A stretch of 59,383 nucleotides of DNA, from positions 1 to 59,383 of IMG/VR virus record IMGVR_UViG_3300045950_000335. One strand, given 5' to 3'. Shown piece by piece: positions 19,198-59,383 of this stretch. The DNA is from a virus. Lineage: Duplodnaviria > Caudoviricetes. A program made the position numbers and the translations under genes. The number at the start of each line of letters is the position of its first letter. Position 1 is the first letter of the stretch. The notes beneath the pieces are model-generated. The model saw nothing but the letters and a program-made list of their open reading frames with translations, ran no database searches and was not told the origin of the DNA.

Positions 19198-19232
19198 AAG
19201 GGCGGTGTCCTAGGCCTCTAGACGAAGGGGAC
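19157..19232 (-). tRNA. tRNA-Glu (TTC), probable att junction of the left prophage
   Basis: GTCCCCTTCGTCTAGAGGCCTAGGACACCGCCCTTTCACGGCGATAACACGAGTTCGAATCTCGTAGGGGACGCCA. Confidence 0.95.
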
Positions 19233-19254
19233 GTGGGTTGCTACCTCTTCTTTT

Positions 19255-19330
<76 letters not shown>

Positions 19331-26059: not shown

Positions 26060-29000
26060 TTACTCGGTTTGCATCAGAGCCTCGATCTTCTCCATGCCTT
26101 CGCGCTCGATGCGGTCATACTCGCGCTGGCTGATCGCCCCCTTTTCCAGTAATCGCGCCGCGCTCCTGATCTCGGCCTTGACGCTCTTCGCCACGCCCAT
26201 CTTCATGCCTTCGGCGATCTCTTCCGAACGCTGCAGGTCAATCGGCTTTGCCTTGATGCCGAAGGTCTGCATCGCGGCATACTTAGGCTGCTCCGGTAGT
26301 CCGTCCTTGCCTGTCCCGGTATAGTCCCTGAACAGACTTGCCTTCTCCAGCGTGGTGTCGAAATAATTGGCCGCGCTATTCAGGATGCGGTCGTAGTGAT
26401 TCCCCATCGGAGCGACTGCCGGCATGAACTGTTTGTAGATGAAGCCAGCCGCCTTCTTCGCCTTGTCCGTGCCGGTGTCATTGCTATCGAACAGCTCCTT
26501 GCCGTCCCAGTTCCGGTTGTCGATCAGTCCGGAATAGAGACCAAGTAACGGATTGCTGGGCATTAGGGGTGCGGGGATGCCGCCGATCCCGCCCTTCTCG
26601 TTGTTCACGTCCTGGATGTCTCCGCCGGGGATGAAACGATAGACGTTCATGAACACCGGCATTCCGGTCTTCTCGTCGGTGCCGAGGCGGATGGTCTTCT
26701 GCGTGCCGAGTGCCGATCTGCCCTTGTCCCACTCGGGCAGGTTCTTGCGCTCCTCCTGCTCCAGCATTTGGCCTGCCGTCTCGGCCTCGCCGTCCCCGTA
26801 CAGGCCAAGTGTGTAGGCGTTCAGCAGCGCGTTTATCGTGCCGCTGGCAATCGCCGTCAGCCACCAATCATCATCCCCGCTGTCACCGGCCAGCGAAGCA
26901 TAAGTCAGCGCGTTGATGGACGCGATGATCGTTGCAGGCATCGCGAAGCGCCACGGGTATTCGACTGCGGTATGAATCAGTGCCGGCACGACCTTGTAGG
27001 TGTAGCCGAAGAACGGCAGCGCGTAATCGCGGATGACGCGTGCTGTCACTGGAAGGTCGTCGTAGTTGAAAATGTACTTGGTCGAGTACTGCACCGCGTC
27101 CTCCGGGCTCATACCCTTGCTGCGCGCGTCGCGGTAGATGGCGTACTTGAACAGCGTGTCGCCCAAGTGGTACGCCTTGGCGGCCTTCTCGTTCAGTCCG
27201 AGCGAGGCCAGTTTCCAGATAAACCTGCCAGCCCGGCGCGCCGCGCTGTCCGACGAAGCGCTGATCAGATTGCGCACCTCGGGCGGCATGCCCTTCATGA
27301 TCTCTTCCTGGCTGAAGTCTCCGGTGAACAGCCCGGCGTCCTCCGCCTCCTTCACCAGTTGATCTCCGCGCGCCAGGTCACGCAGTGCGAAATAGTATTT
27401 CTCTCCGTCCCAATAGCTCACCCCGGCGAAGTGCGCCATGGTCAGGTTCGACACGAAGTTGTTCATGTGGGTGACCGGATTCAGGACCGTCTTGCCCTCT
27501 TTCCACTTCGACAGCGCAGCCTTGTAATACTTCTGGAATTCGTTGTTGTTCTGCTCGTACTGGCTGATATGGTACAGAATCTCCTTCCGCACGTACATGC
27601 CGGAAAGCATGCCGTAGCTCTTCAGGCCGCCAGTGTCTGGTATCTCGGTTTCCGGGACATACACGAAGCCATCGGACGGCGTGCGGCGAGTCCATTCCGG
27701 ATTCTCGGCAATGGTCTTGTACAGCCGGCCGACGGACAGATCGCGCTGCATCGACAGGTAGCCCATCACGAAGCGCAATCGGAAGTCCTCGATCTCGCCC
27801 ATGTCGCGGCGTTCTTCCGGCGTGTAGTCCTTCCAGATGACGACGGTATCGGTATCCGGCAGCGGTTTCCCGTCCAGCGTCAGTTCCAGGTTGCCGCTGC
27901 GCAGGATGCGCTTGTCGTCCAGCTTCCAGCCCAACGCCTCCCATTGCGGCAGTTCGGCAGCCGTTACCACTTGGCGCTTGCCGCGTCCTTTCAGTGACCC
28001 GCTGCGAAACCCATCCACCGGGCTGCTCTTGAACGCGCGGCGCCACACGCTTTTGATCTCCGGGTCGAGGTGGCGCAGGTAGAAGCGCGGCAGGTAGCGC
28101 CCCTTCCATTTCTCGTAGGCGTCCTCAGACAGCATCTTGAGATCGACCGCATCCTGCCCCTGCTGCGTCATGGCCTGCTCCACCACGGCGGCGATCTTCA
28201 GCGCGTGCTCCGGCGGCACGTCGTCGTTCCTCATCTCCTGCGTCACGATGCGCGAGATCAGCCCGGCCTCTTCCTCGGTCATGCCCTTGGTGCTGTTCAC
28301 CACCTCGCCAGCGACACGCATGGCCTTGTCCAAGTCGGCTTTCTGCCGGCGGATCAACTTGGCCAGTTCCGGCGTCGCCTGCGCCATGCCCAGCTTCACG
28401 CCCATCGGGCGGAAGAACGCCGCATGCAGAAAGTCCTTGAAGCGGCGCGTACCGAGCAGTTCCGAGCGGATGTTGCCGAGTTCGTCACGGCTGTAGAGCA
28501 GCGGAACGGACTTCGGCAAAATGCGCGCCACGATGTCTGTGTTGCGCGGAACGGCGGGACCTTCCTTTGGTGCTGGCGCGCGGCTTGACATGGCGTAGCT
28601 GCCGTCCTCATGCTCGACTGCCGGTTCCGCCTTACCCTCAACCTTGCCCTTCATCTGGCGGATCAGGTCAAGTATCTCGGCGTCGCTCACCTCGTCGGCT
28701 TGCTCTCCAGGCTTTCCGAGTGCCGCACGCATGAAGCTGCGTAGCGCATCCACCACTCGCTGGATCAGCGCCCGCAGCCCGCCGCGCATCTCCGCCGGGA
28801 CGACCACCTGGTAGCGATCCAGCAGCGCATCGAAGTCGCCTGTGATGTGTGCCGCCGCCAGCTCGGCTATCGCCTCGTCCACATGCTTCCTGGCGTTGAG
28901 CGGCTCTTTGCGGTCGGCGGCGATGGCCCTGGCCAGCCTCGTCACGGTGCTGTTCTTCGCCGCAGTCTCAACCGTATCCTTGACGGACCGTCCAAGCATT

Positions 29001-32000
29001 CTGATGCCGCCGTGTCCTACGACCTCATGGACAGCAACCCACACCGCGCGCTCCGGCGTGGCGATATTGGAGGCGATCAGGTACACGGTGTTCGTCACCG
29101 GGTCATAGACGCCCTCGGTTCCCTGGTCGATGGGCTTGAGCGCGCGCAGAGAACGCAGATACAGGTCGTTCGGCACCTGGCGCGCCGTCTCGATGATCTT
29201 GATGTCGCGGAACCCGTGCCAGCCGTTGCGCAGCCGTGCAGTGGCCTTGGTGACTGATTCGACGGTCTGACCGCCTCCTGGGTTGCCTCGGCTGAACAGC
29301 GCCGCGCCGGAGCCTTCGGTAATCTCGAACGTCCCGTCATCACGGACAATCAGCGTGCCGTCGCGCTCCCCGAACGTATTGAAAAAGCGCCCGAACTTTC
29401 CGTCTTTCCAGTCGTAAGTCCCGGCCTTTCCGCGAAGGCGCGCATTGAAAAACAACACTCCTGATTTGTATTCAAGCGCGGCTTTCAGCGGGTCTCTTTT
29501 CTTCCCGAAGTCAACCTTTTTCGCCCCCTCCGGTGCGCTCTCCAGTTCCGCCGATTCGCGCGCCGACTTCTCTGCGGCAAGGCGTGTCTTGACCTGCTCT
29601 TCCAGCGCGTCAACCTTTGCCCGTTCTGCCTCATTCTCCGGAAAGAAACCAAGCAGCGGTCGTCCGCTTGAGTGTCCCGCCATGTGGTGCCACTCCACGC
29701 CGGAACCCCATGCTTCGGAATCCGTCGCCTGCACCACCTTGTATGCGGCATCCCTGCCGCCGGAATCGTTGGCATTGCGAGAGTTCCTGCGCATCACGCT
29801 GAATGCCGGATCGGCAACAAACGATACTTCCGTCCCTTCCGGCGTCACGCCGGTTACGATGGCATCCCTGGCCTGTTTCATGAACACGGCCAAGTCAAGG
29901 TCGGTAAATCCGTCCAACTTGTCGGCCAGCCAGTTCCAGTTGTGCCGTTCCGCGAAAACCTGCAATGCCTGTTTGATCTTGCCCAGCACCCACTTGATCG
30001 CCTTCGCCGTCTCGCCCGTGGTCTGCGCGTGGGCGATCAGCTCGTTCACGATGGCCGCACGCTTCTTCGCCAGCGCGGTCTTTTCCAGCCCAATAACGGC
30101 ATCGGTAACGGCGGATATTTCCTTTTCGATCCCGTACTGGCGCGCGATCTTCAACACCCCAGCCGTGCCGCCCGCGCGCTGCCAGAATTCGTTCATCACC
30201 GGGACTGCCGCTTTACCCAGCACAGCGAATGTGCCAAGATGCCCCAATGCCTCATGCACCAGAGTTTCCTCAACCTCGGCAACCGTCCCGATATTCGGGC
30301 GCACCAGATAGGCGTTACCTTGATAGACAAAGCCCTTGATCTCGTTCGGCGGATAACCAAGCTCTTCCGCCGCCGCAAGAATGTCAGCCGGAATGTTGGC
30401 ATGATCGTCTATCGTGACGATCCGGTTGCGGCTGACCGCATCCCATCCGGCGGAAAGCCGATGGACGGCTTCATCGAAATCTTTGGCGGCAAGCGGCTCG
30501 ACGACCGGTGAGCCCGTCTGGAACATCGCCGTGTCAGTTGTCTGGGTAGTCGAACCAAGAACCTCCCGCACATCCTCCGGCGAAAGCGTGTCTGTGTTCA
30601 GCGCCTCGATGGCCTTCAGCTTCGCGGCTTTGTCCAGGTCGGATGAGATGATGGCGGCTTTGGCGGATTGCTTGCTTTGCTCGGCTGGCTGGGGTATATT
30701 GTTTCTACCGGATGGCTGAAAGACAGAAATTTCGCCCTCTGCTGGAACCTCATGGTTCACTGGATGATGGGTACGGCGGCCATCCAGCCATTCGGCACTT
30801 TTATTCCTGTACTGCTTCAATCCCCTATCGCGTGTGGTAATGATGTTCACAACATCAGTTCCGTTGCCATTCTTGGAAATCTCCAGCACGACCAGATAAT
30901 TCTTGTCTGTCTCATAGACAATGAACGCGCTATTCTCCCGAGTCGGGTTATGCAATACCTCTGCCTTACCTTCGATGATCTTCGGCAGCGAGTCGATTAC
31001 TGAATCCAGCTCAGCATGACGCTGTTCATCAGTATGTTTCAGCGACTTTCCGGATACTCGGACGAGCGCATGTTTTTCGCTGAATCCGTCGATGAATTGC
31101 GAAAGATCATCAATCGTGGATTGCGGCAATGTACCAACAGAAAATGTCGCATCAGGGACTTGCTGGCCTTTCTCCTTGCCGAACACATTGGACTCAAGGT
31201 ATCGGCGGACTTCGCTGAACGGCTTTACGTTTCCGGCCTGATTGCTTGACGTTTCGGCGGCGCTGATGCGCGCGGTTATCTTTTCAGCGTCATCCTTCGA
31301 CGTGAATATGGATACCCTCTCACCATTGTCGGCGGCTGCGGCAATCCGATGGCGACCGTCATTTACGCCGATCTTGCCTTTCGCATTGATTGCCACCTCG
31401 ATATTGCCGGTGGACTTCTTCCCGCTGCGCACGGCATCCAGCTTGTCCTGGCTCCACGCAAGCTGCTCCCCGTTGTCGCTCTCGAACGCATTACGCAAAG
31501 CACGCGCATCAACCTCGATCTTGGTGTCGTAACCTTCGCGCCCGGTATCGGTTTGCGTTGCCAGCAAATCCTGCTGCCCATGCGCAGCCCCAACGTCCGC
31601 AGCGCGGTCGCTGCCGGTCAGGGTGAATTCTTCTGGGGATGGCGCAGCTTCACGGCGGGCCCGTTCTTCCGCCGCCTGCTTGCGCTGGAGGTCTTGCGCT
31701 TTTAGCTCTGCTTCGGTTTGGCTTTGGAGCGCGAATCCTGGCGCTTCTGATGCAGCTCGTGCGCCGCTTTTAGCACCTTCTTGCGCTCGCTCTCCGGCAC
31801 TTTCAGCAGGATTTCCGCCACCTCTTTTGTCATTTTCGCCATATTGTTCTCCAAGGAATACGGCCAGCGCCGCATCATCCGTCCGCAGGTCATCGCCAAA
31901 CGGTATATCTGTTCCCTCATCGAGCAGGTCAGCGATGCCGCTTGCATAGCCTACGTGTTCATCGCTCAACGCCTCGCGCTCGGCAATCTCCGCCATGCGC

Positions 32001-34075
32001 AGGGCATCTTCGGCCAGATAGATCGCCTCGTCAAGCTGCGTTTCGGACAGATTTTTCCACTTTATCCCCAAGCTTTCGGCATGGGAAATACGGTCATTGC
32101 TGTATCTGTCCTTGGCCTGCTGTTCGGCGAATTTCTCGATGGTCGAGGCCTTGAAGTTGCGCTCTCCTCCGATATGGGCGCGGATCATGTCCTTCAGTTG
32201 CTGCACGCCGCCATCCACGGAATGCGTGTCGATGGCAAAGCCTTCATCCGCCAGCGAGGTCGCCAGGTCATCCAGCCCGCGCCCGTCGTTCTTGAAGGCA
32301 AAGCGCCAGCCGCCGAGCTGCTTGCGGTCCTTCTCTCCGGTGATGTCGAACATCGCGCCGGCATCCACGCCGCCGAGTTGCTTGATGCGCTGCAACAGGT
32401 CGGACGAGGCCCGCGGCTTGCGCGCAGCCTGAATTGAAGGTGCGCTTTCCTGAAGAGGCGTGGCCGGTGCTGTGATAGGTGCGGTCGCGGATTGTGCCGT
32501 AGGTTTTGCATCTGCCACCGGCTGTGCGCTCGCCAGATCGAATCCACCTTGCACTCTATCTGATGCAGTGCGTTGCGCGTCGGCCAGTTCCTTCGCCTTG
32601 GCAAGGGTGGCAAGCACGGCGTCGTAGTCGGTCTTGGTTTCCGGATTGGCTGGCCGTGCCATTCCAGGCGCTGCTACTGCTCCGCCCATGACAGAACCAG
32701 CCATGATGCCTTCCACCGTTGCGCGGTTGACGCCCTCCATCACCGGCTTGTCCTCGGCGATGTTCTTCAGCATCTGCTCCATCGAGGACTGCGTACCCTC
32801 TTCGATGATGCCTTCCTGCATCATCGCAGCAGGGATGCGTTTGTAGAATGGAGAAGTCACTGCCGATGTCGCCGTTCCGCCGGCGAGCATGGTATCCACA
32901 TCACGGATGCCGAACTTGCTGGCGAGCGCGCCGCTGTATTTTCCGACCGCTGCGCCCATGATGCCTGTCGCCAGACTTGCCAGCGCCGCGGTGCGTGCAT
33001 CCACCGACTTGTCGATCTCGTTCATTTGCTGGCCGGCCATGATTGCGCCTTCGCCAATAGCACCAGCCGTGGTCGCCGCCTTCTGCATCGCAGCCGGAGC
33101 CAGCCCGGCCTTGGAAAGCATAGCGACACGACCAATTGCGCCGCCTGCGGCCATGGATGGCAGCGACTGGATGATATTTCCGGCAGTCACGCCTAGATTG
33201 GCGGCATATTCCTTGGTGACATCCCACCAGTCTTTTGTTTCATCGTTCCATACGGCGGTGATGTTGTTCTGGCCTTGCTTGCGGATGTCGGAATATCCGG
33301 CCTCCAGTTCCTGAGCGTACTTGGCTGGCTGGAATCCAGTCACCCTCCCAACCTCATCGAACAGCTTATCGGCGGGCCGTTCGCCAACAACCAGCGCCGG
33401 CGCGATGTCCAGCAATCCGGTGAAAGCTCCGGGAACCTTGGCTACGCCGATACGAAAATCCGTCGCCGTGTCGGCGATGACATGGTGAGCATTGGCATAG
33501 TTGCGCTGCTCGACTCCTTGAGCATATTGAGCGCCTTGCTCTGTCAGGATACGGCGCGCATTCTCGCCTTCCGGCGTATCGCTGGCCGCCAATGTGCGCA
33601 GCGAAGCCATGCGCGCATTCTCTGCGTCGATGCGCTCTTGCTCCGCCCTCCCTGACGCCTCAACCGCATCCGCCATCACCACTTCCGGCTTGCGCGTCAC
33701 CGCCTCCTGATCCGCGATGCGCGGCGAGCCGCTTCCCTGAATGAAGCGCGATGTCTCCGCCATGGTGTCATTCTGTCCGTCTGCCTTGGGCGCAACAGCG
33801 CGCTCCGCGGCAATATCCTGCGCGCGGGTATTGACAGAAGAATAGCCGTTTTCATCGAAGCGGATGCCGGAGCGGATCGCGGCCAGCTTGCTGTTGGTCG
33901 CATCGACCGGCGCATCCATGACGGACGGACTACGGAACAGCTCATTGGCCGAACGGTACAGGCGGTCCTTCATGGGGGCGGATTGAACGGGTTCATCTTG
34001 TGGCCCTATCGGTTTCGCCGAGGAAAGATCAAACCCGCCGGATACCGGCTTGGCCGAAGCGAGGTCGAAGGTCAT
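26060..34075 (-). CDS. Giant (2671 aa) internal virion / DNA-ejection polyvalent protein
   Basis: Located between internal virion genes and tail fibre; HEALGH and HEVVGH zincin-like motifs; ParB-like NDGRHR. Confidence 0.8.
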   Translation of the reverse strand: MTFDLASAKPVSGGFDLSSAKPIGPQDEPVQSAPMKDRLYRSANELFRSPSVMDAPVDATNSKLAAIRSGIRFDENGYSSVNTRAQDIAAERAVAPKADGQNDTMAETSRFIQGSGSPRIADQEAVTRKPEVVMADAVEASGRAEQERIDAENARMASLRTLAASDTPEGENARRILTEQGAQYAQGVEQRNYANAHHVIADTATDFRIGVAKVPGAFTGLLDIAPALVVGERPADKLFDEVGRVTGFQPAKYAQELEAGYSDIRKQGQNNITAVWNDETKDWWDVTKEYAANLGVTAGNIIQSLPSMAAGGAIGRVAMLSKAGLAPAAMQKAATTAGAIGEGAIMAGQQMNEIDKSVDARTAALASLATGIMGAAVGKYSGALASKFGIRDVDTMLAGGTATSAVTSPFYKRIPAAMMQEGIIEEGTQSSMEQMLKNIAEDKPVMEGVNRATVEGIMAGSVMGGAVAAPGMARPANPETKTDYDAVLATLAKAKELADAQRTASDRVQGGFDLASAQPVADAKPTAQSATAPITAPATPLQESAPSIQAARKPRASSDLLQRIKQLGGVDAGAMFDITGEKDRKQLGGWRFAFKNDGRGLDDLATSLADEGFAIDTHSVDGGVQQLKDMIRAHIGGERNFKASTIEKFAEQQAKDRYSNDRISHAESLGIKWKNLSETQLDEAIYLAEDALRMAEIAEREALSDEHVGYASGIADLLDEGTDIPFGDDLRTDDAALAVFLGEQYGENDKRGGGNPAESAGERAQEGAKSGARAASEAPGFALQSQTEAELKAQDLQRKQAAEERARREAAPSPEEFTLTGSDRAADVGAAHGQQDLLATQTDTGREGYDTKIEVDARALRNAFESDNGEQLAWSQDKLDAVRSGKKSTGNIEVAINAKGKIGVNDGRHRIAAAADNGERVSIFTSKDDAEKITARISAAETSSNQAGNVKPFSEVRRYLESNVFGKEKGQQVPDATFSVGTLPQSTIDDLSQFIDGFSEKHALVRVSGKSLKHTDEQRHAELDSVIDSLPKIIEGKAEVLHNPTRENSAFIVYETDKNYLVVLEISKNGNGTDVVNIITTRDRGLKQYRNKSAEWLDGRRTHHPVNHEVPAEGEISVFQPSGRNNIPQPAEQSKQSAKAAIISSDLDKAAKLKAIEALNTDTLSPEDVREVLGSTTQTTDTAMFQTGSPVVEPLAAKDFDEAVHRLSAGWDAVSRNRIVTIDDHANIPADILAAAEELGYPPNEIKGFVYQGNAYLVRPNIGTVAEVEETLVHEALGHLGTFAVLGKAAVPVMNEFWQRAGGTAGVLKIARQYGIEKEISAVTDAVIGLEKTALAKKRAAIVNELIAHAQTTGETAKAIKWVLGKIKQALQVFAERHNWNWLADKLDGFTDLDLAVFMKQARDAIVTGVTPEGTEVSFVADPAFSVMRRNSRNANDSGGRDAAYKVVQATDSEAWGSGVEWHHMAGHSSGRPLLGFFPENEAERAKVDALEEQVKTRLAAEKSARESAELESAPEGAKKVDFGKKRDPLKAALEYKSGVLFFNARLRGKAGTYDWKDGKFGRFFNTFGERDGTLIVRDDGTFEITEGSGAALFSRGNPGGGQTVESVTKATARLRNGWHGFRDIKIIETARQVPNDLYLRSLRALKPIDQGTEGVYDPVTNTVYLIASNIATPERAVWVAVHEVVGHGGIRMLGRSVKDTVETAAKNSTVTRLARAIAADRKEPLNARKHVDEAIAELAAAHITGDFDALLDRYQVVVPAEMRGGLRALIQRVVDALRSFMRAALGKPGEQADEVSDAEILDLIRQMKGKVEGKAEPAVEHEDGSYAMSSRAPAPKEGPAVPRNTDIVARILPKSVPLLYSRDELGNIRSELLGTRRFKDFLHAAFFRPMGVKLGMAQATPELAKLIRRQKADLDKAMRVAGEVVNSTKGMTEEEAGLISRIVTQEMRNDDVPPEHALKIAAVVEQAMTQQGQDAVDLKMLSEDAYEKWKGRYLPRFYLRHLDPEIKSVWRRAFKSSPVDGFRSGSLKGRGKRQVVTAAELPQWEALGWKLDDKRILRSGNLELTLDGKPLPDTDTVVIWKDYTPEERRDMGEIEDFRLRFVMGYLSMQRDLSVGRLYKTIAENPEWTRRTPSDGFVYVPETEIPDTGGLKSYGMLSGMYVRKEILYHISQYEQNNNEFQKYYKAALSKWKEGKTVLNPVTHMNNFVSNLTMAHFAGVSYWDGEKYYFALRDLARGDQLVKEAEDAGLFTGDFSQEEIMKGMPPEVRNLISASSDSAARRAGRFIWKLASLGLNEKAAKAYHLGDTLFKYAIYRDARSKGMSPEDAVQYSTKYIFNYDDLPVTARVIRDYALPFFGYTYKVVPALIHTAVEYPWRFAMPATIIASINALTYASLAGDSGDDDWWLTAIASGTINALLNAYTLGLYGDGEAETAGQMLEQEERKNLPEWDKGRSALGTQKTIRLGTDEKTGMPVFMNVYRFIPGGDIQDVNNEKGGIGGIPAPLMPSNPLLGLYSGLIDNRNWDGKELFDSNDTGTDKAKKAAGFIYKQFMPAVAPMGNHYDRILNSAANYFDTTLEKASLFRDYTGTGKDGLPEQPKYAAMQTFGIKAKPIDLQRSEEIAEGMKMGVAKSVKAEIRSAARLLEKGAISQREYDRIEREGMEKIEALMQTE

Positions 34076-50832: not shown

Positions 50833-51048
50833 TCAGGCGGGCTTGCGCGCAACCCGCCGCATCGTGCGTTTGTGCAGCGCGAGAATCTTGTTTCCCGTCG
50901 TCCAGCGCACATCCTTGCGGGTGTCGCTGTTCAGGATTTCATTGACGCTCGGAGGCTTCAAGTCGATTTCGCGCGCAATCTCCGCTTGCGAAATTCCGGC
51001 ATCAACCACTTCCTGTAAGAGTCGTTTCCAGTTATTTTCGGTATCCAT
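50833..51048 (-). CDS. Cro-like HTH protein
   Basis: GISQAEIAREIDLKPPSVNEIL; divergent from CI. Confidence 0.8.
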   Translation of the reverse strand: MDTENNWKRLLQEVVDAGISQAEIAREIDLKPPSVNEILNSDTRKDVRWTTGNKILALHKRTMRRVARKPA

Positions 51049-51054
51049 TCTGCG

Positions 51055-51096
51055 ATGATAGGCGCGCCTAACATCTTAGTCAATAGGCTTGCCGAA
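51055..51096 (-). promoter_or_regulatory. pR-like promoter with two CI operators
   Basis: Minus-strand TTGACT-17-TATCAT; dyads ATAGGcgcgCCTAA (51058-51071) and ATAGGcttgCCGAA (51083-51096). Confidence 0.8.
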
Positions 51097-51119
51097 TGCA
51101 CACAATGCTAATGTTAGGC

Positions 51120-51794
51120 ATGAGTTCGCTATCAGAAAGAATCAAAGAGCTTGCCGCCGACCTTCCGCGCGGGTGGCAGGCCGAGCTTGCGCGCTATTGC
51201 AAGGTAAAGCCGCCGTCGGTCGCTGGGTGGGTATCTGGTGACACAAAAACGCTTGACGGCGAGAACCTGCTGAACGTGGCAGCATTTTTCAAGGCGAACC
51301 CGAAATGGATTGCTACAGGAAAAGGTAGAAAATACCCAGATTCTTCCACCTATTCATCGGGAAGCGCCGCTCCAGAGCAAGGCAATATCTCTCCACAAAA
51401 AATAGCCATCGGAGGAAGAGTGCCTTTAATCAGCCTAGTGGCGGCTGGTACCTGGAGAGAGAGCGTGGATAACTTAGTGCCTGGAACAGCAGAAGAATGG
51501 GTAACAACAACCGTTGCCGTAAAACAACACACCTACGCCCTGCGCGTGGAAGGCGACTCGATGGAGCCGCGCTTCCCGCATGGAGCCATCCTGATCGTGG
51601 AGCCGGAGGAAGAGGCCCGCAACGGCAGCTTCGTCATCGTGCGCCAGAACGGCTCGGAGGCCACGTTCAAGCAGCTAGTATATGATGGCGGCCAAGCCTA
51701 CCTCAAGCCGCTCAACCCGCGCTACCCGATCATGCAGATGCGTCCGGACGCGGTGATCTGCGGCGTGGTCAAGCAGATGGTGATGGACGTATAA
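51120..51794 (+). CDS. CI-like repressor (HTH plus S24 peptidase)
   Basis: QAELARYCKVKPPSVAGW; VAAG cleavage site; VEGDSMEP; ATFKQL. Confidence 0.92.
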   Translation: MSSLSERIKELAADLPRGWQAELARYCKVKPPSVAGWVSGDTKTLDGENLLNVAAFFKANPKWIATGKGRKYPDSSTYSSGSAAPEQGNISPQKIAIGGRVPLISLVAAGTWRESVDNLVPGTAEEWVTTTVAVKQHTYALRVEGDSMEPRFPHGAILIVEPEEEARNGSFVIVRQNGSEATFKQLVYDGGQAYLKPLNPRYPIMQMRPDAVICGVVKQMVMDV

Positions 51795-52730: not shown

Positions 52731-52752
52731 AACCCGCCTCGGCGGGTTTTTT
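52731..52752 (+). terminator. Rho-independent terminator closing the CI/moron transcript
   Basis: AACCCGCC-TC-GGCGGGTT followed by a T run. Confidence 0.85.
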
Positions 52753-52764
52753 ATTTAACCATTA

Positions 52765-52806
52765 TTAGGTTTGCCTATTGACAGCATGATTAGGTGCGCC
52801 TATCAT
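52765..52806 (+). promoter_or_regulatory. pL-like early promoter with two CI operators
   Basis: TTGACA (52778-52783)-17-TATCAT; TTAGGtttgCCTAT and TTAGGtgcgCCTAT match the dyads at 51058 and 51083. Confidence 0.85.
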
Positions 52807-52970: not shown

Positions 52971-53046
52971 AGCGAGGTAGAGCAGTTGGCAGCTCGGGTG
53001 GCTCATAACCACCAGGTCGCCGGTTCGAGTCCGGCCCTCGCAACCA
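52971..53046 (+). tRNA. Phage tRNA-Met (CAT), initiator-like
   Basis: AGCGAGGTAGAGCAGTTGGCAGCTCGGGTGGCTCATAACCACCAGGTCGCCGGTTCGAGTCCGGCCCTCGCAACCA. Confidence 0.88.
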
Positions 53047-54112: not shown

Positions 54113-54294
54113 AGGCGCTGCACGACCGCATAGACCGCATGGCAGAGCAGGCACAGATCGAAATCATGAAGGACGGCCTGCGCGCCCGTTGCCAGCTTAA
54201 CGGACTGGTGGCGCACCACAACCGCAGCCTCGCGCAACTCAGGCGCAACCGGATGGCGGAAAGACTGGCTAAACAACAAGGAGATAAGAAATGA
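54109..54294 (+). CDS. Hypothetical protein
   Basis: ATGA overlaps. Confidence 0.5.
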   Translation: MKALHDRIDRMAEQAQIEIMKDGLRARCQLNGLVAHHNRSLAQLRRNRMAERLAKQQGDKK

Positions 54295-55223
54295 ATGCAG
54301 TCACAGAGCAAGGCAAGAACACGAACAAGGTTGCCGCATTCGCTGGGTTCATGGACAAGCTCAAGCCGCAACTGGCGAGAGCGCTGCCAACCCACATGAA
54401 CGCCGACCGCATGGCGCGCTTGGCGCTGACCGCATTCAGCACCACCCCGGCGCTGCAACAATGCGACCCGAAGAGCATTGCCGGTTCGATCATGACCGCT
54501 GCGCAGCTAGGACTTGAGCCGGGCATCAACGGACAAGGCTACCTGATTCCGTATAAGGAAACCTGCACCTTCGTTCCAGGCTGGAAGGGACTGGTCGATC
54601 TGGTGGCCCGCAGTGGCCGCGCTACCGTATGGACTGGCGCGGTGCGCGCTGGCGACGAATTCGAGTATCAGTTGGGCGATACCCCATTCTGCAAGCACAA
54701 GCCTGGCGACGAGGACGACGACGCGCCCTTTACCCACGTCTATGCCATCGGTCGCGTGCGCGATGCCGCCATGCCGGTGATCGAGGTATGGAGCCGCGCC
54801 AAGGTGCAGAAGCACCTCAAGAAGTACAACAAGGTCGGCAATCGTCACTACGCGCTGGCAGACGAGAACAACCTGGAAATGTACGCCCGCAAGTGTGCGC
54901 TGCTGCAGGTGCTGAAATACATGCCATCGAGCATCGAGCTTGCCAATGCAATCGTTGCCAGCAATGCCGCGGAAGAGGGTCACGGAGTCACCATTGAGAA
55001 CGGCATCGTGGTCGATATGGGCGGATCGGAAAGCGAGCCAGCCAAGGATCAGCGCGCCGAATGCACGCCTGAGCAATTCGCCGATCTGGCTGCAGAGTGG
55101 GAAAGCCTGGTGCGCACTGGAAAGAAGAGTGCGAAGCAGGCGCTGGCTGCGATGGCGACGATCTGTGTCCTCACCGAAGAGCAGCAGTTGCAGGTTGATG
55201 CCTGGCAGTCGGAGGGCAACTGA
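54291..55223 (+). CDS. recT: RecT family single-strand annealing recombinase
   Basis: ALPTHMNADRMAR...AAQLGLEPG..GQGYLIPY...GWKGLVDLVARSG. Confidence 0.92.
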   Translation: MNAVTEQGKNTNKVAAFAGFMDKLKPQLARALPTHMNADRMARLALTAFSTTPALQQCDPKSIAGSIMTAAQLGLEPGINGQGYLIPYKETCTFVPGWKGLVDLVARSGRATVWTGAVRAGDEFEYQLGDTPFCKHKPGDEDDDAPFTHVYAIGRVRDAAMPVIEVWSRAKVQKHLKKYNKVGNRHYALADENNLEMYARKCALLQVLKYMPSSIELANAIVASNAAEEGHGVTIENGIVVDMGGSESEPAKDQRAECTPEQFADLAAEWESLVRTGKKSAKQALAAMATICVLTEEQQLQVDAWQSEGN

Positions 55224-55225
55224 TC

Positions 55226-56827
55226 ATGGAAATCCACGACATCCAGCAAGGCACTCCCGAGTGGGACGCATTCCGCCTGACCCACTTCGGCGCCAGCGAG
55301 GCCGCGGCGATGCTTGGCCTCTCCAAGAAGGTGAAGCGCACCGAACTGCTGCGCATGAAGCACACCGGCATTGCCAAGGAGTTCAGCGATTGGGTGCAGG
55401 AGAACGTCCTTGACCACGGCCACGAAGTTGAGGCGCTTGCCCGCCCGATCATCGAGCGCATCATCGGTGCGAAGCTCTATCCGGTGGTTTGCTCCGAAGG
55501 CAAGTTGTCAGCGTCCTGCGACGGCCTGACGGCAGACGATAGAACTGCCTTCGAGCATAAGCAGTGGAACGCAGACCTTGCCGAGCTGGTGCGCAACGGC
55601 ATTGTGCCAGACGATCACATGTCGCAATGTCAGCAGATATTAATGATTACAGAGGCCGAGCGCGTCATCTTCACTGTGTCCGATGGCACCGAGGAAAAAA
55701 TGGTATACGTCGAGGTGAGGCCGGACCAAGAATGGTTCTCGCGCATCATGCACGGATGGACACAGTTCGCCATCGATCTCGAAAACTACCGACACGTTGA
55801 AATCCAAGAAAAGCCGAAGGCCGAGGCCATCATGGACCTGCCCGCGCTGTCTGTGCAGGCTTCCGGCATGGTCACGTACTCCAACCTGCCGGAATTCAAG
55901 GCGGCAGCCGAGAGCTACATCTCAGGCATCAACACCGACCTGCAGACCGACAACGACTTCGCCAACGCCGAGGCCACGGTCAAGTTCTGCAAGAAAACCG
56001 AGGAAACGCTGGACGTAACGAAAAAGGCCATCCTCGCGCAGACCGCCAGCATCGACGAAGTAATCCGGACGGTCGAGCATATCCAAGCGCAGCTTCGCGA
56101 CAAGCGCCTGCTGCTGGACAAGCTGGTGAAGACCGAGAAGGACAAGCGCAAGACGGAAATGGTGGCCGCGGCAAATGTGAAGTACGCCGAGCACGTCGCC
56201 GCACTGCAGGCCGAGATAACCGGGATCAACCTGAACCCGCTGCTCAAGACGCCGGACTTTGGCGGCGCCATTAAGGGGCTGAAGTCGCTGGCATCCATGC
56301 ACGACGCTCTGGATGCCGCGCTGGCGAACGGCAAGATCGAGGCAGACCGCATCGCCCTGGACGTGCGCGCAAAGCTGGTATGGTTCGGCAAGTACGCTGA
56401 TGACTACCGCGCGCTGTTTGCCGACATGCAGCTACTTATGGGTCTGACCGGCGATGCGTTTGAGGCAATCGTGAAGAACCGCATCGCCGAGCACAAGGCC
56501 GCCGAAGCCGCCGCGAAGCTGGCCGAGGAAGAGGCGCGCATCCGGGCGGAGGAATGGGCGAAGGCGAAGGCCGAACTGGATGCTGCGAAGAACAGCCAGG
56601 AAGGCGCTCAACTATCACCGGCAGCGCAGGAACTGTACGAAGCAGAGGGTGCGGCTCGATTCTCAGAGAAGCATCCTGCCTTGGCGTCCAAACCTGAGGC
56701 AGCGAAGGCACCGCGCCCGACGCGCATGGCGCTTATTGAATGCATTGCCAGCCACTACGGCGTCAGCATCCTGACCGCCGGCGAGTGGCTGCGCACGGTA
56801 TTCACAGATGGAATACCAACTTGCTAG
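55226..56827 (+). CDS. YqaJ/lambda-exonuclease family protein with long C-terminal coiled coil
   Basis: QGTPEW...FGASEA...GHEVE...SASCDG...FEHK. Confidence 0.9.
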   Translation: MEIHDIQQGTPEWDAFRLTHFGASEAAAMLGLSKKVKRTELLRMKHTGIAKEFSDWVQENVLDHGHEVEALARPIIERIIGAKLYPVVCSEGKLSASCDGLTADDRTAFEHKQWNADLAELVRNGIVPDDHMSQCQQILMITEAERVIFTVSDGTEEKMVYVEVRPDQEWFSRIMHGWTQFAIDLENYRHVEIQEKPKAEAIMDLPALSVQASGMVTYSNLPEFKAAAESYISGINTDLQTDNDFANAEATVKFCKKTEETLDVTKKAILAQTASIDEVIRTVEHIQAQLRDKRLLLDKLVKTEKDKRKTEMVAAANVKYAEHVAALQAEITGINLNPLLKTPDFGGAIKGLKSLASMHDALDAALANGKIEADRIALDVRAKLVWFGKYADDYRALFADMQLLMGLTGDAFEAIVKNRIAEHKAAEAAAKLAEEEARIRAEEWAKAKAELDAAKNSQEGAQLSPAAQELYEAEGAARFSEKHPALASKPEAAKAPRPTRMALIECIASHYGVSILTAGEWLRTVFTDGIPTC

Positions 56828-56843
56828 GCGATTGACTTAAGGG

Positions 56844-56864
56844 CTCTAACGCCTGAATATGAAC
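56844..56864 (-). other. Degenerate attC half-site (L'-spacer-R' only), distal array boundary
   Basis: Minus strand GTTCATAT-TCAGGC-GTTAGAG resembles a canonical attC end; no partner arm found. Confidence 0.45.
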
Positions 56865-56884: not shown

Positions 56885-57055
56885 GTGAAAAATGCAAAGT
56901 GGTGGCAAATACTTCTGGCCGTGCTGGGAGGGGTCGTAATCGCGCTCGGCGTGCTCGTGCTTTGGTTCGCTGCAGAGGAAAGCGGCGTAGCCAAGAACTG
57001 CTACACGGGCATTGTTGGCGGTAATGTGGCCGTTATTTGCCCGCCGAACAAATGA
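56885..57055 (+). CDS. Small single-TM protein (56 aa, MKNAKWWQILL...)
   Basis: RBS AAGGAG, GTG start, TGA overlaps next ATG; not in ORF track. Confidence 0.6.
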   Translation: MKNAKWWQILLAVLGGVVIALGVLVLWFAAEESGVAKNCYTGIVGGNVAVICPPNK

Positions 57056-57525
57056 CGACGCCTATTGCGCAGGCCGGCACAGAGAGTGGTTTTGATGCTT
57101 TAGAAGAGGCGGTCGGCGCATATTGGGATTGCGCGTACCAGGAGGGACATCTGGGCCGCCAGGACGGCGACAAGGCCAATGCAATACTGCATGAGATTCG
57201 ACGCGCTGCGACAGCGCTTGTTGCGGAAGAACGCGCCCGATGGGAGCCGGCGGCCGAGAAAGCATACAAGGCACTTTGCGAAGAGTCGGCTGCATACGAT
57301 GAACCGCTGTCGCATGCTCCAGGCCACGCGCACGCCGTACCTGGCGTGTGGGACGACGACAACGGCGAACTGGCCGGCAAGCGTTGCGCATGGTGCGCGA
57401 CGTGGGCGAAGGCGAAGGCGATGGGACTCACGACGCCCAACGCCAGAGTTGACCGGCCTGACGCGGCTTTATGCGGCAGGTCCGGTCGGACGACGGGTTG
57501 TGCGGCTGGTGGAGAAGACCGATGA
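57052..57525 (+). CDS. Hypothetical protein reading through attC3
   Basis: C-terminal PNARVDRPDAALCGRSGRTTG is the translated attC. Confidence 0.6.
   Translation: MTTPIAQAGTESGFDALEEAVGAYWDCAYQEGHLGRQDGDKANAILHEIRRAATALVAEERARWEPAAEKAYKALCEESAAYDEPLSHAPGHAHAVPGVWDDDNGELAGKRCAWCATWAKAKAMGLTTPNARVDRPDAALCGRSGRTTGCAAGGEDR
57435..57503 (-). other. attC site 3 (69 bp)
   Basis: Minus: GCACAAC-CCGTC-GTCCGACC-GGAC...CCGGTCAAC-TCTGGC-GTTGGGC; folds into a hairpin with extrahelical bases. Confidence 0.82.
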
Positions 57526-58103
57526 CGGTGGCCGTGCTCTTCGCTCGCGCGGACAGCAACTACAAGGCTCTGCCTAACGTTGAGGTATTCGACGCCGAGC
57601 GAGACGCTCGCACCTACGACGGGCCGTGGCCGGTTGTGGCGCACCCGCCCTGCCGTGCCTGGGGAATGTTACGCAAGCTCGCCAGCCCGCGACCAGACGA
57701 GCGCAACCTGGCGCGGCTTGCCGTGGCTTTGGTGCGGGAGTTTGGTGGCGTGTTGGAGCACCCAGCCGGCTCGACGCTCTGGGCGGCGCAGAAGCTGCCG
57801 AAGCCCGGAGAGCGCGACGCCTTCGGCGGCTGGACGCTCGAAATTGACCAATGGCGATTCGGGCACCGCGCCATGAAGATGACGCGACTGTACGTGGTCG
57901 GAGCGGAGCCCGAGGAGGCCCCACGACTGCCGCCGGCGAAAACAGGGGAACCGACGCATGTGATAACACAAGGCCGGCGTGCGAAGAAAGGCGAACCGGG
58001 CTTTCGCAGCAGGGTGACAGACGCGGAACGCGAGCATACGCCGCCGGCGCTCGCGCAATGGCTCGTAGAACTGGCGGCGAAGTGCAAGACGCACAACGTT
58101 TGA
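57522..58103 (+). CDS. Cassette ORF: compact DNA cytosine methyltransferase-like protein
   Basis: VAVLF (degenerate motif I), VAHPPC (IV), VLEHP (VI), GHRAMKMTRLY (VIII-like), REHTPPALAQWL. Confidence 0.65.
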   Translation: MTVAVLFARADSNYKALPNVEVFDAERDARTYDGPWPVVAHPPCRAWGMLRKLASPRPDERNLARLAVALVREFGGVLEHPAGSTLWAAQKLPKPGERDAFGGWTLEIDQWRFGHRAMKMTRLYVVGAEPEEAPRLPPAKTGEPTHVITQGRRAKKGEPGFRSRVTDAEREHTPPALAQWLVELAAKCKTHNV

Positions 58104-58159
58104 GGTAACCGGCCTCGCGCGCTTTTTGCGCGAGGTCCGTGTTGACCGAGAGGTTATGC
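58091..58159 (-). other. attC site 2 (69 bp)
   Basis: Minus: GCATAAC-CTCTC-GGTCAACA-CGGAC-CTCGCGCaaaaagcGCGCGAG-GCCGGTTACC-TCAAAC-GTTGTGC. Confidence 0.88.
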
Positions 58160-58189
58160 CTCTCGCAACTACGAAGAAAGGAAAGAACC

Positions 58190-58483
58190 GTGAGCAACAA
58201 ACTGAAACTGACCAAGATCGAACTGACCACGAAAGACGGCAAGAAGGTTGAGTTGTCGTTGGATGAGGCGAAAGACCTGCACGACCAACTGCATGAATTG
58301 TTCGGCCAGAAAACCGTCTTTGTGCCTGGGGCGCCGGTAATCATTGAGCGTGACCGTTACTGGCGGCCGTACCAGCCGTATTGGGGCGGCGGCGGCGGGG
58401 GCGGGAGTGACCAGCGAACCTGGGAAGTGCTTTGCAAGAGCAGCAGCGGCCTTGCGGTGACGTATGGCGGACAAGAGGCATAA
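58190..58483 (+). CDS. Cassette ORF: hypothetical protein (97 aa)
   Basis: RBS AAGGA, GTG start; TAA lies within GCATAAC. Confidence 0.65.
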   Translation: MSNKLKLTKIELTTKDGKKVELSLDEAKDLHDQLHELFGQKTVFVPGAPVIIERDRYWRPYQPYWGGGGGGGSDQRTWEVLCKSSSGLAVTYGGQEA

Positions 58484-58569
58484 CGTCGAAGGTCAGGGGC
58501 CGGCGCCCACTGACCGTTGAACAACCTGCAAAACGCTTGCCGCCGGTCCCCTGCACCGTAGGGTTAGCC
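58478..58569 (-). other. attC site 1 (92 bp)
   Basis: Minus: GGCTAAC-CCTAC-GGTGCAGG-GGAC-CGGCG...CGCCGG-CCCCTGACC-TTCGAC-GTTATGC. Confidence 0.85.
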
Positions 58570-58593
58570 GGCACCACCGGAAAGGGTGCACGC

Positions 58594-58839
58594 ATGAATC
58601 TCTACCACTTTTGCGCGATGAGACAAGGCGAAAGCGCTGGTGTTTTGTCATACGCCGATGGAACAGTTTCGTCGTCAGGCAATTTTGCTGATGCTGAAGA
58701 ATACGTGAAGTTGAAGAGGGCGATAGTCAAATACATCAACGCCAACGGCGGACACGCCACGGAGGTTGTTCTGCTGTCGCTGACGCTCATTGGGGAAGTG
58801 CCGGCTAACTTGAATTCAACGACACCACCTGTCGCGTGA
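58594..58839 (+). CDS. Cassette ORF: hypothetical protein (81 aa), reads through the candidate attI
   Basis: ATG after AAGGG; lower GC than flanks. Confidence 0.6.
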   Translation: MNLYHFCAMRQGESAGVLSYADGTVSSSGNFADAEEYVKLKRAIVKYINANGGHATEVVLLSLTLIGEVPANLNSTTPPVA

Positions 58840-58853
58840 ACAGGGGTCGCGTG
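58803..58853 (-). other. Candidate attI site
   Basis: Minus strand GTTGAATTCAA-GTTAGCC core with no attC hairpin partner; direct repeats GTCGCGTG at 58831 and 58846; adjacent and divergent to the IntI-type gene. Confidence 0.6.
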
Positions 58854-58891: not shown

Positions 58892-59383
58892 ATGACTGAT
58901 CTCTTGGAATTGAACGCGACAGCGCAAACCGTTCAACGCGACACGCCTGCCGTGCCGCACGAACCGCCGCGCCCGGTGAAGCTGCTCGACCAGGTGCGCG
59001 AGCGCATCCGCACGCTGCACTACAGCCGAGCCACCGAGAAAACCTACCTCTACTGGATCAAGTTCTTCATCCTCCAGCAAGGCAAGCGCCACCCGCGCGA
59101 CATGGGCGCCGCCGAGGTCGAAGCCTTCCTCTCGCACCTCGCCACCGCTCGCGAAGTCTCCGCCGGCACGCAGAACCAGGCCATGCACGCCATCCTGTTC
59201 CTCTACAAGCAAGTCCTCGGCATCGACCTGCCCTGGCTCGAAGTCGTCCGCGACGTCCTCGGCCATACCAGCGTGCGCACCACCGAGCGCTACGCCCACC
59301 TAGCCGTAGATCGGCAGCGCGAAGCCCTGCAGGCGCTTTCACGCGCCGTCAAAAAGTCCAGGGGTGTAGCAAATCCGGTGTAA
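58892..59383 (+). CDS. Chimeric/truncated tyrosine recombinase: IntI-type N-terminal domain fused to LGH..TT..YAH tail; probably catalytically incomplete
   Basis: LLDQVRERIRTLHYS..TEKTY..WIK.FI...KRHPRDMG..EVEAFLSHLA....VS..TQNQA..A.LFLYKQVL..DLPWL, then directly EVVRDVLGHTSVRTTERYAHL. Confidence 0.8.
   Translation: MTDLLELNATAQTVQRDTPAVPHEPPRPVKLLDQVRERIRTLHYSRATEKTYLYWIKFFILQQGKRHPRDMGAAEVEAFLSHLATAREVSAGTQNQAMHAILFLYKQVLGIDLPWLEVVRDVLGHTSVRTTERYAHLAVDRQREALQALSRAVKKSRGVANPV

What the first reader, a model, noticed from the sequence alone, without database searches (positions are those of the whole stretch)
57052..58839. All cassette ORFs are inverted relative to attC polarity and face the CI-controlled phage promoter
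Seen: the unpaired bases (G or C, plus T) lie in the right arm on the + strand, and the 5-nt/6-nt spacer asymmetry marks the minus strand as the attC top strand. Yet every plausible ORF with an RBS is on +. Established: typical cassettes are co-oriented with the top strand and read from Pc near attI. Inference: expression here would come from the pL-like promoter (52778) through recT/yqaJ, so the newest cassette is the most promoter-distal, intI is the last gene of the same transcript, and both would be induced with the lytic switch. This suggests a phage-specific class of antisense cassettes.
Basis: partly seen in the sequence, partly recalled or inferred. Interest (0 to 1): 0.82.

Follow-up and report, generated by a model that had tools for sequence, protein, structure and literature searches.

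The report
Prophage integron with backwards gene cassettes
A prophage carries a small integron (a gene-capture array) whose three captured genes all run backwards compared with the textbook layout, so they can only be read from the phage's own early promoter, and the same mirror-image layout recurs in dozens of related phage sequences.

Summary
Three attC sites (57435-57503, 58091-58159, 58477-58569) are real. A covariance model built only from class 1 and Gallionella attC sites finds exactly these three in 59 kb, all on + (E <= 2e-6; next best E 2.5).

That model follows the strand opposite the cassette genes of its seed integrons. So + is the attC bottom strand, the same geometry relative to intI as in class 1 integrons. 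Yet the cassette genes lie on +. This rests on codon statistics, phrog_12600 for ORF2, and 47 and 6 database relatives for ORF3 and ORF4.

The ORF4 family is conserved exactly up to the AAC crossover codon.

The array sits between recT/yqaJ and a dead chimera made of the intI N-terminus and a phage int C-terminus. It lies downstream of a promoter-like site flanked by operator-like palindromes.

The layout recurs. In IMG/VR intI loci, 83 of 117 cassettes were called co-oriented with intI, 1 opposite, and 33 stayed undecided. These loci form one IntI clade.

Expression from the phage promoter is inferred, not shown. I found no paper describing this layout. This scan has already noted the same kind on other DNA (e1-3438401, e1-6088216 and others).

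The parts
52731..52748 (+). Terminator-like hairpin ending the CI/immunity transcript
   Evidence: 7-pair stem (5 G-C) followed by a T run
52768..52806 (+). Early-left (pL-like) promoter-like site TTGACA-17-TATCAT (52778-52806), with two operator-like palindromes TAGGnnnnCCTA (52768-52779 and 52791-52802)
   Evidence: 11 of 12, best in the region; the same palindrome lies at 51059-51070 between cro-like and CI
54291..56827 (+). Phage recombination genes recT (54291-55223) and yqaJ-type exonuclease (55226-56827), upstream of the array on the same strand
   Evidence: Pfam RecT E 1e-33, YqaJ E 1e-9; codon LLR +97 and +209
56885..57055 (+). 56-aa membrane-type ORF whose stop overlaps the ORF1 start (ATGA)
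   Evidence: (+ frame best, LLR 9.5)
57052..57525 (+). ORF1. It lies outside the array, reads through attC1, and its stop overlaps the ORF2 start (ATGA)
   Evidence: no Pfam, PHROG or NCBIfam match
57435..57503 (+). attC1, with the bottom strand on +. It belongs to the ORF2 cassette (cassette unit 57441-58096)
   Evidence: 36.1 bits, E 2e-6, +; 12 of 12 template pairs, extra G and T in the 3' arm, spacers 6/5
57522..58103 (+). ORF2, a cassette gene of phage family phrog_12600 with a weakly C5-cytosine-methyltransferase-like fold. Its last two codons and stop come from the next cassette
   Evidence: E 3.5e-70; 80 viral loci
58091..58159 (+). attC2, with the bottom strand on +. It belongs to the ORF3 cassette (cassette unit 58097-58483)
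   Evidence: 38.7 bits, E 5e-7, +
58190..58483 (+). ORF3, a cassette gene whose stop TAA lies inside the R' box GCATAAC
   Evidence: 47 relatives besides itself; LLR +28.4
58477..58569 (+). attC3, with the bottom strand on +. It belongs to the ORF4 cassette (cassette unit 58484-58808)
   Evidence: 36.7 bits, E 1.6e-6, +
58594..58839 (+). ORF4, the attI-proximal cassette gene. Its conserved core ends at the AAC crossover codon, and its last 10 codons are attI sequence
   Evidence: 7 of 7 rows have Asn at that column and unrelated tails after it
58803..58845 (+). attI core: GGCTAAC|TTGAATTCAACGACACC...TGTCGC, with the crossover between 58808 and 58809
   Evidence: the same motif lies upstream of intI in 34 of 83 loci, with different sequence to the left of the bar
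58892..59383 (+). Dead chimera: IntI N-terminal domain (aa 1 to about 116) joined in frame to the last ~48 aa of a phage tyrosine integrase

Best explanation
This is a genuine three-cassette integron array built into a lambdoid prophage. It lies at the far end of the early-left operon, between the recT/yqaJ recombination genes and the phage integration module.

The attC, attI and intI geometry is the ordinary one: the attC bottom strand lies on the intI-coding strand. Each cassette, however, carries its gene on the bottom strand. Read along the gene, the folded site lies in front of it.

Such cassettes face away from any Pc-type promoter near intI. They can only be read by transcription arriving from the phage side, most likely from the repressor-controlled promoter at 52778. 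That step is inferred.

The array belongs to a phage-associated clade of integron integrases in which cassettes are co-oriented with intI. They often encode DNA-modification and counter-defence functions.

In this copy a deletion fused the intI N-terminus to the 3' end of the phage int. Both recombinases are therefore dead, and the array is frozen.
For: Shown:
- The attC sites and their strand.
- Polarity relative to intI is uniform. 180 of 183 model matches in 97 sources lie on the intI strand.
- The + ORFs are real: codon LLR, phrog_12600, and 47 and 6 relatives for ORF3 and ORF4.
- Cassette boundaries are real. The ORF4 family is conserved to the Asn at the AAC crossover and then diverges in 7 of 7 rows. 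The ORF2 cassette with its upstream attC is shared by the window, L005 and L096, each with a different downstream neighbour.
- The attI motif is conserved in 34 of 83 loci. Loci with the same attI carry different first cassettes: L038/L041/L049, L057/L058 and L045/L046.
- Phage context of the window: terminase, portal, major head and tail spike, and CI with an S24 peptidase domain.
- A second recombinase lies directly downstream of intI in relatives. Counts are 23 of 52 by tblastn, plus a tyrosine Int in L037 and a serine recombinase in L055.
- Recurrence: viral loci gave 83 '+', 1 '-' and 33 undecided of 117 cassettes. One IntI clade of 56 rows (SH-aLRT 97) holds 33 '+' rows and 0 '-' rows.
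- 7 of 7 tested IntI of relatives pass TIGR02249.
- Functions among 79 co-oriented cassette proteins: N6_N4 methylase 4, Mom 2, Dam 1, PAPS reductase 3, DHH phosphoesterase 3.

Inferred:
- Transcription from 52778.
Against: - There are no RNA data, so transcription from the phage promoter is untested.
- The promoter scan is a consensus match only.
- ORF4's codon score is weak (+1.7 to +5.5).
- 33 of 117 viral and 30 of 48 genome cassettes could not be called by the codon rule. That rule was trained on G+C-rich genes of these same loci and fails on the controls of lower G+C (class 1: 3 of 4 undecided; L013: 18 of 18 undecided).
- Near-identical loci were not removed from the counts (L005=L022, L003=L060, L057=L059).
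- The loci were collected with an IntI of this clade, so canonical integrons are few in the sample (5 '-' rows).
- IMG/VR 'viral' labels are predictions.
- The tree is a quick search with a midpoint root.
- 2 '+' rows (L061, L019) fall outside the clade.
- The window ends at the chimera's stop codon, so the prophage end itself was not seen.
Confidence: 0.78

Rival explanations
1. The cassettes are inverted as described, but each is expressed from a promoter of its own (inside or next to its attC), as toxin-antitoxin cassettes of chromosomal integrons are. They would not depend on read-through from the phage early promoter.
For: Gaps of 86 and 110 nt hold attC2 and attC3 in front of ORF3 and ORF4, and each attC hairpin could hinder read-through. 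Cassettes with their own promoters are known (passages of PMC13108822).
Against: No sigma-70-like site was found on either strand between 52.8 and 59.4 kb at the scan's threshold. The 56-aa ORF, ORF1 and ORF2 are linked by ATGA overlaps. In relatives the cassettes are packed on one strand with the flanking phage genes.
Confidence: 0.12
2. The co-oriented layout is a property of one IntI clade of Betaproteobacteria, wherever it sits. It is not an adaptation to phage operons, and the phage link is a sampling effect of querying IMG/VR.
For: The sample was gathered with a clade member. For 29 of 52 clade loci no second recombinase was found by my two-query tblastn. I did not examine the flanks of L003 and L006.
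Against: Every flank I examined held phage genes: portal (L026), RusA (L038), HNH and SSB (L048), ParB-like (L058), and phage integrases (L037, L055). In L004, L005 and L007 the integron lies between phage genes and a phage int. The cassette cargo is phage-type: Mom and orphan DNA methylases.
Confidence: 0.12
3. The integron is host DNA that merely adjoins the prophage, and the provirus boundary was drawn too far out, up to an 'integrase' gene.
For: The window is a predicted provirus that ends exactly at the stop codon of the integrase-like ORF. The first ~21 kb of the window holds tRNA genes and a serine integrase, and may not be the same phage.
Against: The tail of the last ORF is the C-terminus of a phage integrase of the kind that follows intI in L004, L005 and L051. 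The array therefore lies inside the integration module. ORF1 and ORF2 overlap the upstream ORFs. The same order recurs in many loci.
Confidence: 0.04
4. The + ORFs are shadows in G+C-rich DNA, and the real genes (or none) lie on the minus strand, so the cassettes are canonical.
For: Long minus-strand ORFs exist (57574-58344, 256 aa; 57033-57644, 203 aa).
Against: These ORFs cross attC sites and have negative codon scores. ORF2, ORF3 and ORF4 have protein families on +.
Confidence: 0.02

Closest known systems
Classical integrons (class 1 mobile integrons; sedentary chromosomal integrons)
   Same: The IntI-type integrase gene has attI just upstream of its start. The attC hairpins have RYYYAAC/GTTRRRY boxes, two extrahelical bases and a 6/5 spacer asymmetry. 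The bottom strand lies on the intI-coding strand, and crossover is at AA|C.
   Different: The genes lie on the attC bottom strand, so attC precedes each gene. No Pc-like promoter was found reading into the array. The array is embedded in a phage operon that reads towards intI. Nivina et al. 2016 (PMC5027507, passages) state that cassettes facing the promoter are absent from sequenced integrons.
Integrons and CALINs in phage genomes (Qi, Rajabal, Ghaly, Tetu, Gillings 2023, PMC9892861)
   Same: Integron parts occur inside temperate and virulent phages, and cassettes often encode orphan DNA methyltransferases (section 3.4 read in full).
   Different: That study screened 10,705 NCBI phage genomes and found 21 phages. 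The complete integrons it describes are pieces of host chromosomal or class 1 integrons. The text I read says nothing about genes antisense to attC or about a phage-associated IntI clade. I could not see its supplementary tables.
'Inverted integrase' integrons (Treponema/Xanthomonas-type; recalled from Boucher et al. 2007, not read here)
   Same: intI and the cassette genes point the same way.
   Different: In that type intI itself is turned, and the array lies beyond it with ordinary cassettes. My sample holds such a group: L068, L072, L076, L081 and L087 (labelled by the template scan) form a separate clade. Their arrays lie downstream of intI with attC on the other strand (for all five and L083; L068 also by the covariance model). 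In the window the array is upstream of intI with normal attC polarity, and it is the gene inside each cassette that is turned.
Accessory (b-region/moron) segment between the recombination genes and int of lambdoid phages (recalled)
   Same: The position is between exo/bet analogues and int. The segment is read from the early-left promoter and holds small non-essential genes.
   Different: Here the accessory genes are bounded by attC sites and can be exchanged by an integron integrase.

Membership tests
Integron (IntI + attI + attC cassettes + Pc) | Integron integrase (a tyrosine recombinase matching the IntI family model end to end) | tested here: not met
   In the window only residues 31-117 match TIGR02249 positions 1-87 of 315 (116.9 bits; cut-off 265), and the catalytic domain is missing. 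In relatives, 7 of 7 tested pass (455-481 bits, positions 1-315).
Integron (IntI + attI + attC cassettes + Pc) | attC sites: an imperfect hairpin with R'/R'' boxes, extrahelical bases and an unpaired spacer | tested here: met
   Three sites fit a model built from canonical attC at E <= 2e-6 and match the template 12 of 12.
Integron (IntI + attI + attC cassettes + Pc) | attI next to intI, where cassettes are inserted at G|TT | tested here: met
   The conserved motif after AAC| lies upstream of intI in 34 of 83 loci. Loci with the same attI carry different cassettes to its left. The ORF4 family diverges exactly there.
Integron (IntI + attI + attC cassettes + Pc) | Pc promoter in or near intI/attI reading into the array | tested here: not met
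   No sigma-70-like match on the minus strand between 57 and 59.4 kb. This is a consensus scan only, so the test is weak.
Integron (IntI + attI + attC cassettes + Pc) | Cassette gene on the attC top strand (attC at the 3' end of the gene) | tested here: not met
   All three cassette genes are on the bottom strand. The class 1 controls show the opposite.
Temperate lambdoid phage early-left operon | Repressor with a divergent cro-like gene, an early promoter with shared operators, then recombination genes and int at the end | tested here: met
   CI with an S24 peptidase domain; a cro-like HTH ORF on the other strand; shared palindromes; recT and yqaJ; an int remnant. Antitermination and transcription were not tested.

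The most novel reading that the evidence does not exclude
Temperate phages of Betaproteobacteria, and probably others, maintain their own branch of the integron system. An IntI clade sits at the end of the early-left operon. Its cassettes are built 'site first, gene second', so that the phage transcript reads them and then the integrase. This would create a mirror-image cassette pool, rich in DNA-modification and counter-defence genes, that is separate from the bacterial pool. It would also couple cassette shuffling to prophage induction.
Probability: 0.55. Interest if true: 0.85.

Novelty: new variant of a known kind. Interest (0 to 1): 0.72.

Why it matters
Integron theory holds that strand selection at attC exists to place promoterless genes the right way round behind Pc. 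Here whole arrays keep the recombination geometry but carry every gene the other way, inside phage operons. That shows the platform can be driven from the opposite side.

If this holds, three things follow:
- Phages own a modular, exchangeable store of anti-restriction and anti-defence genes.
- There are two cassette pools, each of which would be silent in the other's platform.
- Integrase expression may be tied to the lysis-lysogeny switch instead of, or as well as, LexA.

It also matters for annotation. Tools that assume genes follow attC polarity would mis-call these cassettes.

Tried and rejected
- MAFFT alignment of 16 attC sites (A1) misaligned the left arms, and I did not use it for a model.
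- The first free-folding scan with loose criteria gave 43-62 hairpins in the window, mostly false. I replaced it with the template and the covariance model.
- The ORF-length rule alone could not call orientation in G+C-rich DNA; the window itself came out '??-'. I replaced it with a codon model. I kept the length rule only for low-G+C controls: L013 10 '-', 1 '+', 1 '?' of 12; L008 3 '-', 1 '+', 1 '?' of 5; L021 2 '-' of 2.
- Rfam found only four tRNAs in the window.
- ORF1-4 have no Pfam or NCBIfam family. ORF1, ORF3 and ORF4 have no PHROG.
- ORF2: no sequence match to solved structures at E <= 1, and no Foldseek match at E <= 0.001. The weak top rows are all C5 DNA methyltransferases (best 6u91_A: E 4.8e-3, TM 0.43). 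This is a lead only.
- A LexA box in front of intI: by eye only a CTGT-N7-ACAG repeat, which is not conserved in L005. I dropped it.
- No RNA holder was listed for the stretch. The single DNA run may be the source sample. Its contig runs only 111 bases past the window end, so the prophage end stayed unseen.
- A further attC left of ORF1: none at E <= 10, apart from an 8.8-bit match inside yqaJ.
- Plasmid hit H4 (L176) had its integron cut by an insertion sequence, and I did not use it.
- The careful tree search did not finish in 300 s, so the quick tree is reported. Rows dropped before the tree: IntI ORFs shorter than 280 or longer than 480 aa, and the window's chimera (82 rows used).
- Literature searches for this layout returned nothing beyond Qi et al. 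2023. Supplementary files of papers were closed. Those of Qi et al. (contexts and annotations) might show gene orientation.
Full report
WHAT THE WINDOW IS. The window is a 59,383-base IMG/VR provirus record.

Its right two thirds are a lambdoid prophage:
- Large terminase, portal, major head protein and tail spike lie on the minus strand.
- A cro-like HTH ORF (50833-51048, -) diverges from a CI repressor with an S24 peptidase domain (51096-51794, +).

Downstream of CI come, in order:
- small ORFs;
- a terminator-like hairpin (52731-52748);
- the best promoter-like site of the region (52778-52806, 11 of 12);
- a tRNA-Met;
- small ORFs, then recT and a yqaJ-type exonuclease;
- a 56-aa ORF;
- the stretch in question;
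- a 163-aa integrase-like ORF that ends at the last base of the window.

The promoter-like site is flanked by two copies of a 12-base palindrome, TAGGnnnnCCTA. The same palindrome lies between cro and CI. This is what an early-left promoter under repressor control should look like. That reading rests on my knowledge of lambda's gene order.

THE attC SITES AND THEIR STRAND. By eye and by constrained folding, three sites fold as attC hairpins.

I used two independent tests.
- A fixed template. It asks for RYYYAAC, 6 nt, 3 bp, one extra base, 6 bp, one extra base, further pairs, then 5 nt and GTTRRRY, with the extra bases in the 3' arm. It gives three 12-of-12 matches in the window, all on +. There were none in 30 Markov resamples.
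- A covariance model. I built it only from canonical sites: three class 1 sites and five from a Gallionella chromosomal array. It models the strand opposite their genes. With filters off it finds the same three sites on + at E 5e-7 to 2e-6. The next match has E 2.5, and there is nothing on the minus strand there.

In two class 1 integrons oriented with intI1 on +, the template hits + while aadA2, gcuF and aadA1 are annotated on -. This agrees with the passages of Nivina et al. 2016 that I read. There the bottom strand carries 5'-RYYYAAC in R' and the extrahelical bases lie near L''.

Across 97 sources, 180 of 183 model matches lie on the intI-coding strand. The three exceptions lie downstream of intI (L094, L068). 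The window's attC-attI-intI geometry is therefore the normal one.

THE GENES.
- In every interval the + frame scores best of six under a codon model. The model was trained on long ORFs outside the cassette zones.
- ORF2 is a full-length member of phage family phrog_12600 (E 3.5e-70), with 80 relatives in viral contigs.
- ORF3 has 47 database relatives and ORF4 has 6, besides themselves.
- The long minus-strand ORFs cross attC sites and score negative.

The cassette genes are therefore on the attC bottom strand.

CASSETTE BOUNDARIES. In + coordinates the cassette units are 57441-58096 (ORF2), 58097-58483 (ORF3) and 58484-58808 (ORF4). Each begins with its own attC.
- The ORF4 family is conserved up to an invariant Asn, which is the AAC of the crossover. 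After it the tails are unrelated in 7 of 7 rows.
- The window's own ORF4 tail, LNSTTPPVA, is attI sequence and recurs in L005.
- The ORF2 cassette with its upstream attC is shared by the window, L005 and L096, but a different cassette follows in each.
- ORF3 stops at a TAA inside the R' box.
- ORF1 is not in a detectable cassette. It reads through attC1 and ends on the ORF2 start.

THE INTEGRASE REMNANT. Residues 31-117 of the last ORF match the integron-integrase model positions 1-87. They are 60% identical to the IntI of L005 as far as ...DLPWL. The remaining ~48 residues match the C-terminus of the phage tyrosine integrase that follows intI in L004, L005 and L051 (55-58% over 31 residues; alignment). 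They match the IntI C-terminus worse (9 of 22). A deletion therefore removed the IntI catalytic domain, whatever lay between the two genes, and most of int. Neither enzyme can work, and this array is frozen.

THE LAYOUT RECURS.
- IntI relatives were found in 20 genome loci, mostly Betaproteobacteria such as Rhodocyclaceae, Thiobacillus and Sulfuricella, and in 74 IMG/VR loci.
- In L005 and L007 the order is phage genes, +-strand cassettes, intact intI, a small ORF, then phage int.
- With cassettes delimited by the covariance model and called by the codon rule, the counts are as follows. Near-identical loci are not removed.

| Sample | '+' | '-' | Undecided | Skipped | Total |
|---|---|---|---|---|---|
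| Viral loci | 83 | 1 | 33 | 0 | 117 |
| Genome loci | 13 | 3 | 30 | 2 | 48 |
| Class 1 controls | 0 | 1 | 3 | 0 | 4 |

- The codon rule fails on low-G+C arrays. There the ORF-length rule gives the canonical '-' (L013 10 of 12, L008 3 of 5, L021 2 of 2).
- In a quick tree of 82 IntI rows, 33 of 35 '+' rows fall in one clade of 56 rows (SH-aLRT 97). That clade has no '-' row, and the 5 '-' rows lie outside it. The window's IntI piece is closest to L002-L004, which are in that clade.
- All 7 IntI I tested pass the family cut-off.
- The attI motif AAC|TTRAATTC..CGACACC..TGTCGC is present in 34 of 83 loci. Loci with the same attI carry different first cassettes. This points to recent insertion at attI.

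PHAGE CONTEXT OF THE RELATIVES.
- A second tyrosine recombinase lies within 4 kb downstream of intI in 23 of 52 clade loci. This count comes from a two-query tblastn and is a lower bound.
- Elsewhere I found a tyrosine Int with an arm-binding domain (L037), a large serine recombinase (L055), RusA (L038), HNH and SSB (L048), a ParB-like protein (L058) and a lambda-type portal (L026).

CARGO. Of 79 co-oriented cassette proteins, most have no family. The named ones are N6_N4 methylase (4), PAPS reductase (3), DHH/DHHA1 phosphoesterase (3), Mom (2), Dam (1), N4 gp49 family (1), an IS110-type transposase (1) and a weak Acb2/Tad1 hairpin match (1). ORF2's model (pLDDT 82.8) weakly resembles C5 cytosine methyltransferases, with no match at E <= 0.001.

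HOW IT MOST LIKELY WORKS.
- Shown: the geometry, the gene strand, the cassette borders, the recurrence and the phage context.
- Inferred: the phage early-left transcript reads recT, yqaJ, the cassettes and then (in intact relatives) intI and int. Cassette genes and integrase would then be made on induction or infection. The attI-proximal, newest cassette would be the farthest from the promoter.
- Why the genes are turned: insertion orientation is fixed by attC strand choice. Only cassettes whose gene lies on the bottom strand are expressed in such an operon, so selection keeps those.

WHAT IS IN PRINT AND IN THIS SCAN.
- Integrons and attC clusters in phages are described by Qi et al. 2023. 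I read the outline, passages and section 3.4. The text does not mention genes antisense to attC.
- Nivina et al. [quoted passage not shown]
- Six searches found no description of this layout.
- Earlier notes of this scan report the same kind of thing on other DNA, including a phage-associated IntI branch and crossovers in a fixed codon phase. They are unchecked AI notes. My own tests agree with them but were made independently on this window.

VERDICT. This is a new variant of a known kind. This particular copy is a dead one.

Noticed in passing
58892-59383: The integrase-like ORF is a chimera: the IntI N-terminal domain is fused in frame to the last ~48 residues of a phage tyrosine integrase. 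Most of both genes has been deleted.
   Followed up: yes
L038, L041, L049; L057, L058; L045, L046 (about 60-160 nt upstream of intI): Loci with the same attI, and identical IntI within L038/L041/L049, L045/L046 and L057/L058/L059, carry different sequence immediately left of the AAC|TT crossover. This suggests recent cassette turnover in this phage-associated clade.
   Followed up: partly
L090 4531-5026 and L091 518-1013: This is another internally deleted intI (N-terminal and C-terminal pieces only). It lies next to one attC and downstream of recT and a yqaJ gene 47% identical to the window's.
   Followed up: partly
56846-56858; L005 about 8250-8262: A lone R'-box-like word (YYAAC followed by nnCTGA) lies just after the stop of the large upstream gene in both loci, with no hairpin behind it. 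It may be a relic of an array boundary.
   Followed up: no
52971-53046: A tRNA-Met gene is the first recognisable product downstream of the early promoter-like site.
   Followed up: no
17686-19197 and 19157-19330: A large serine integrase (phrog_95) abuts tRNA-Glu and tRNA-Ala. The first ~21 kb of the 'provirus' may be a separate integrated element or host DNA.
   Followed up: partly
L068, L072, L076, L081, L083, L087 (downstream of intI): In a separate group of viral-contig integrons, attC-like sites lie downstream of intI on the other strand. This rests on the template scan for all six and on the covariance model for L068. Five of them form an IntI clade of their own. They look like the 'inverted integrase' type.
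   Followed up: no
57498-57525; L096 3335-3360 and about 4975-5001: ORFs that precede a cassette read through the attC and gain similar C-terminal tails encoded by the hairpin. They then stop on the start codon of the next gene.
   Followed up: partly
57452-57486 and 58539-58573: In the one DNA run that holds the window, other contigs carry the inner parts of attC1-like and attC3-like sites with different flanks.
   Followed up: no
26060-34075: A single 2671-aa minus-strand ORF with a strong coding score (LLR 770) lies among the virion genes.
   Followed up: no
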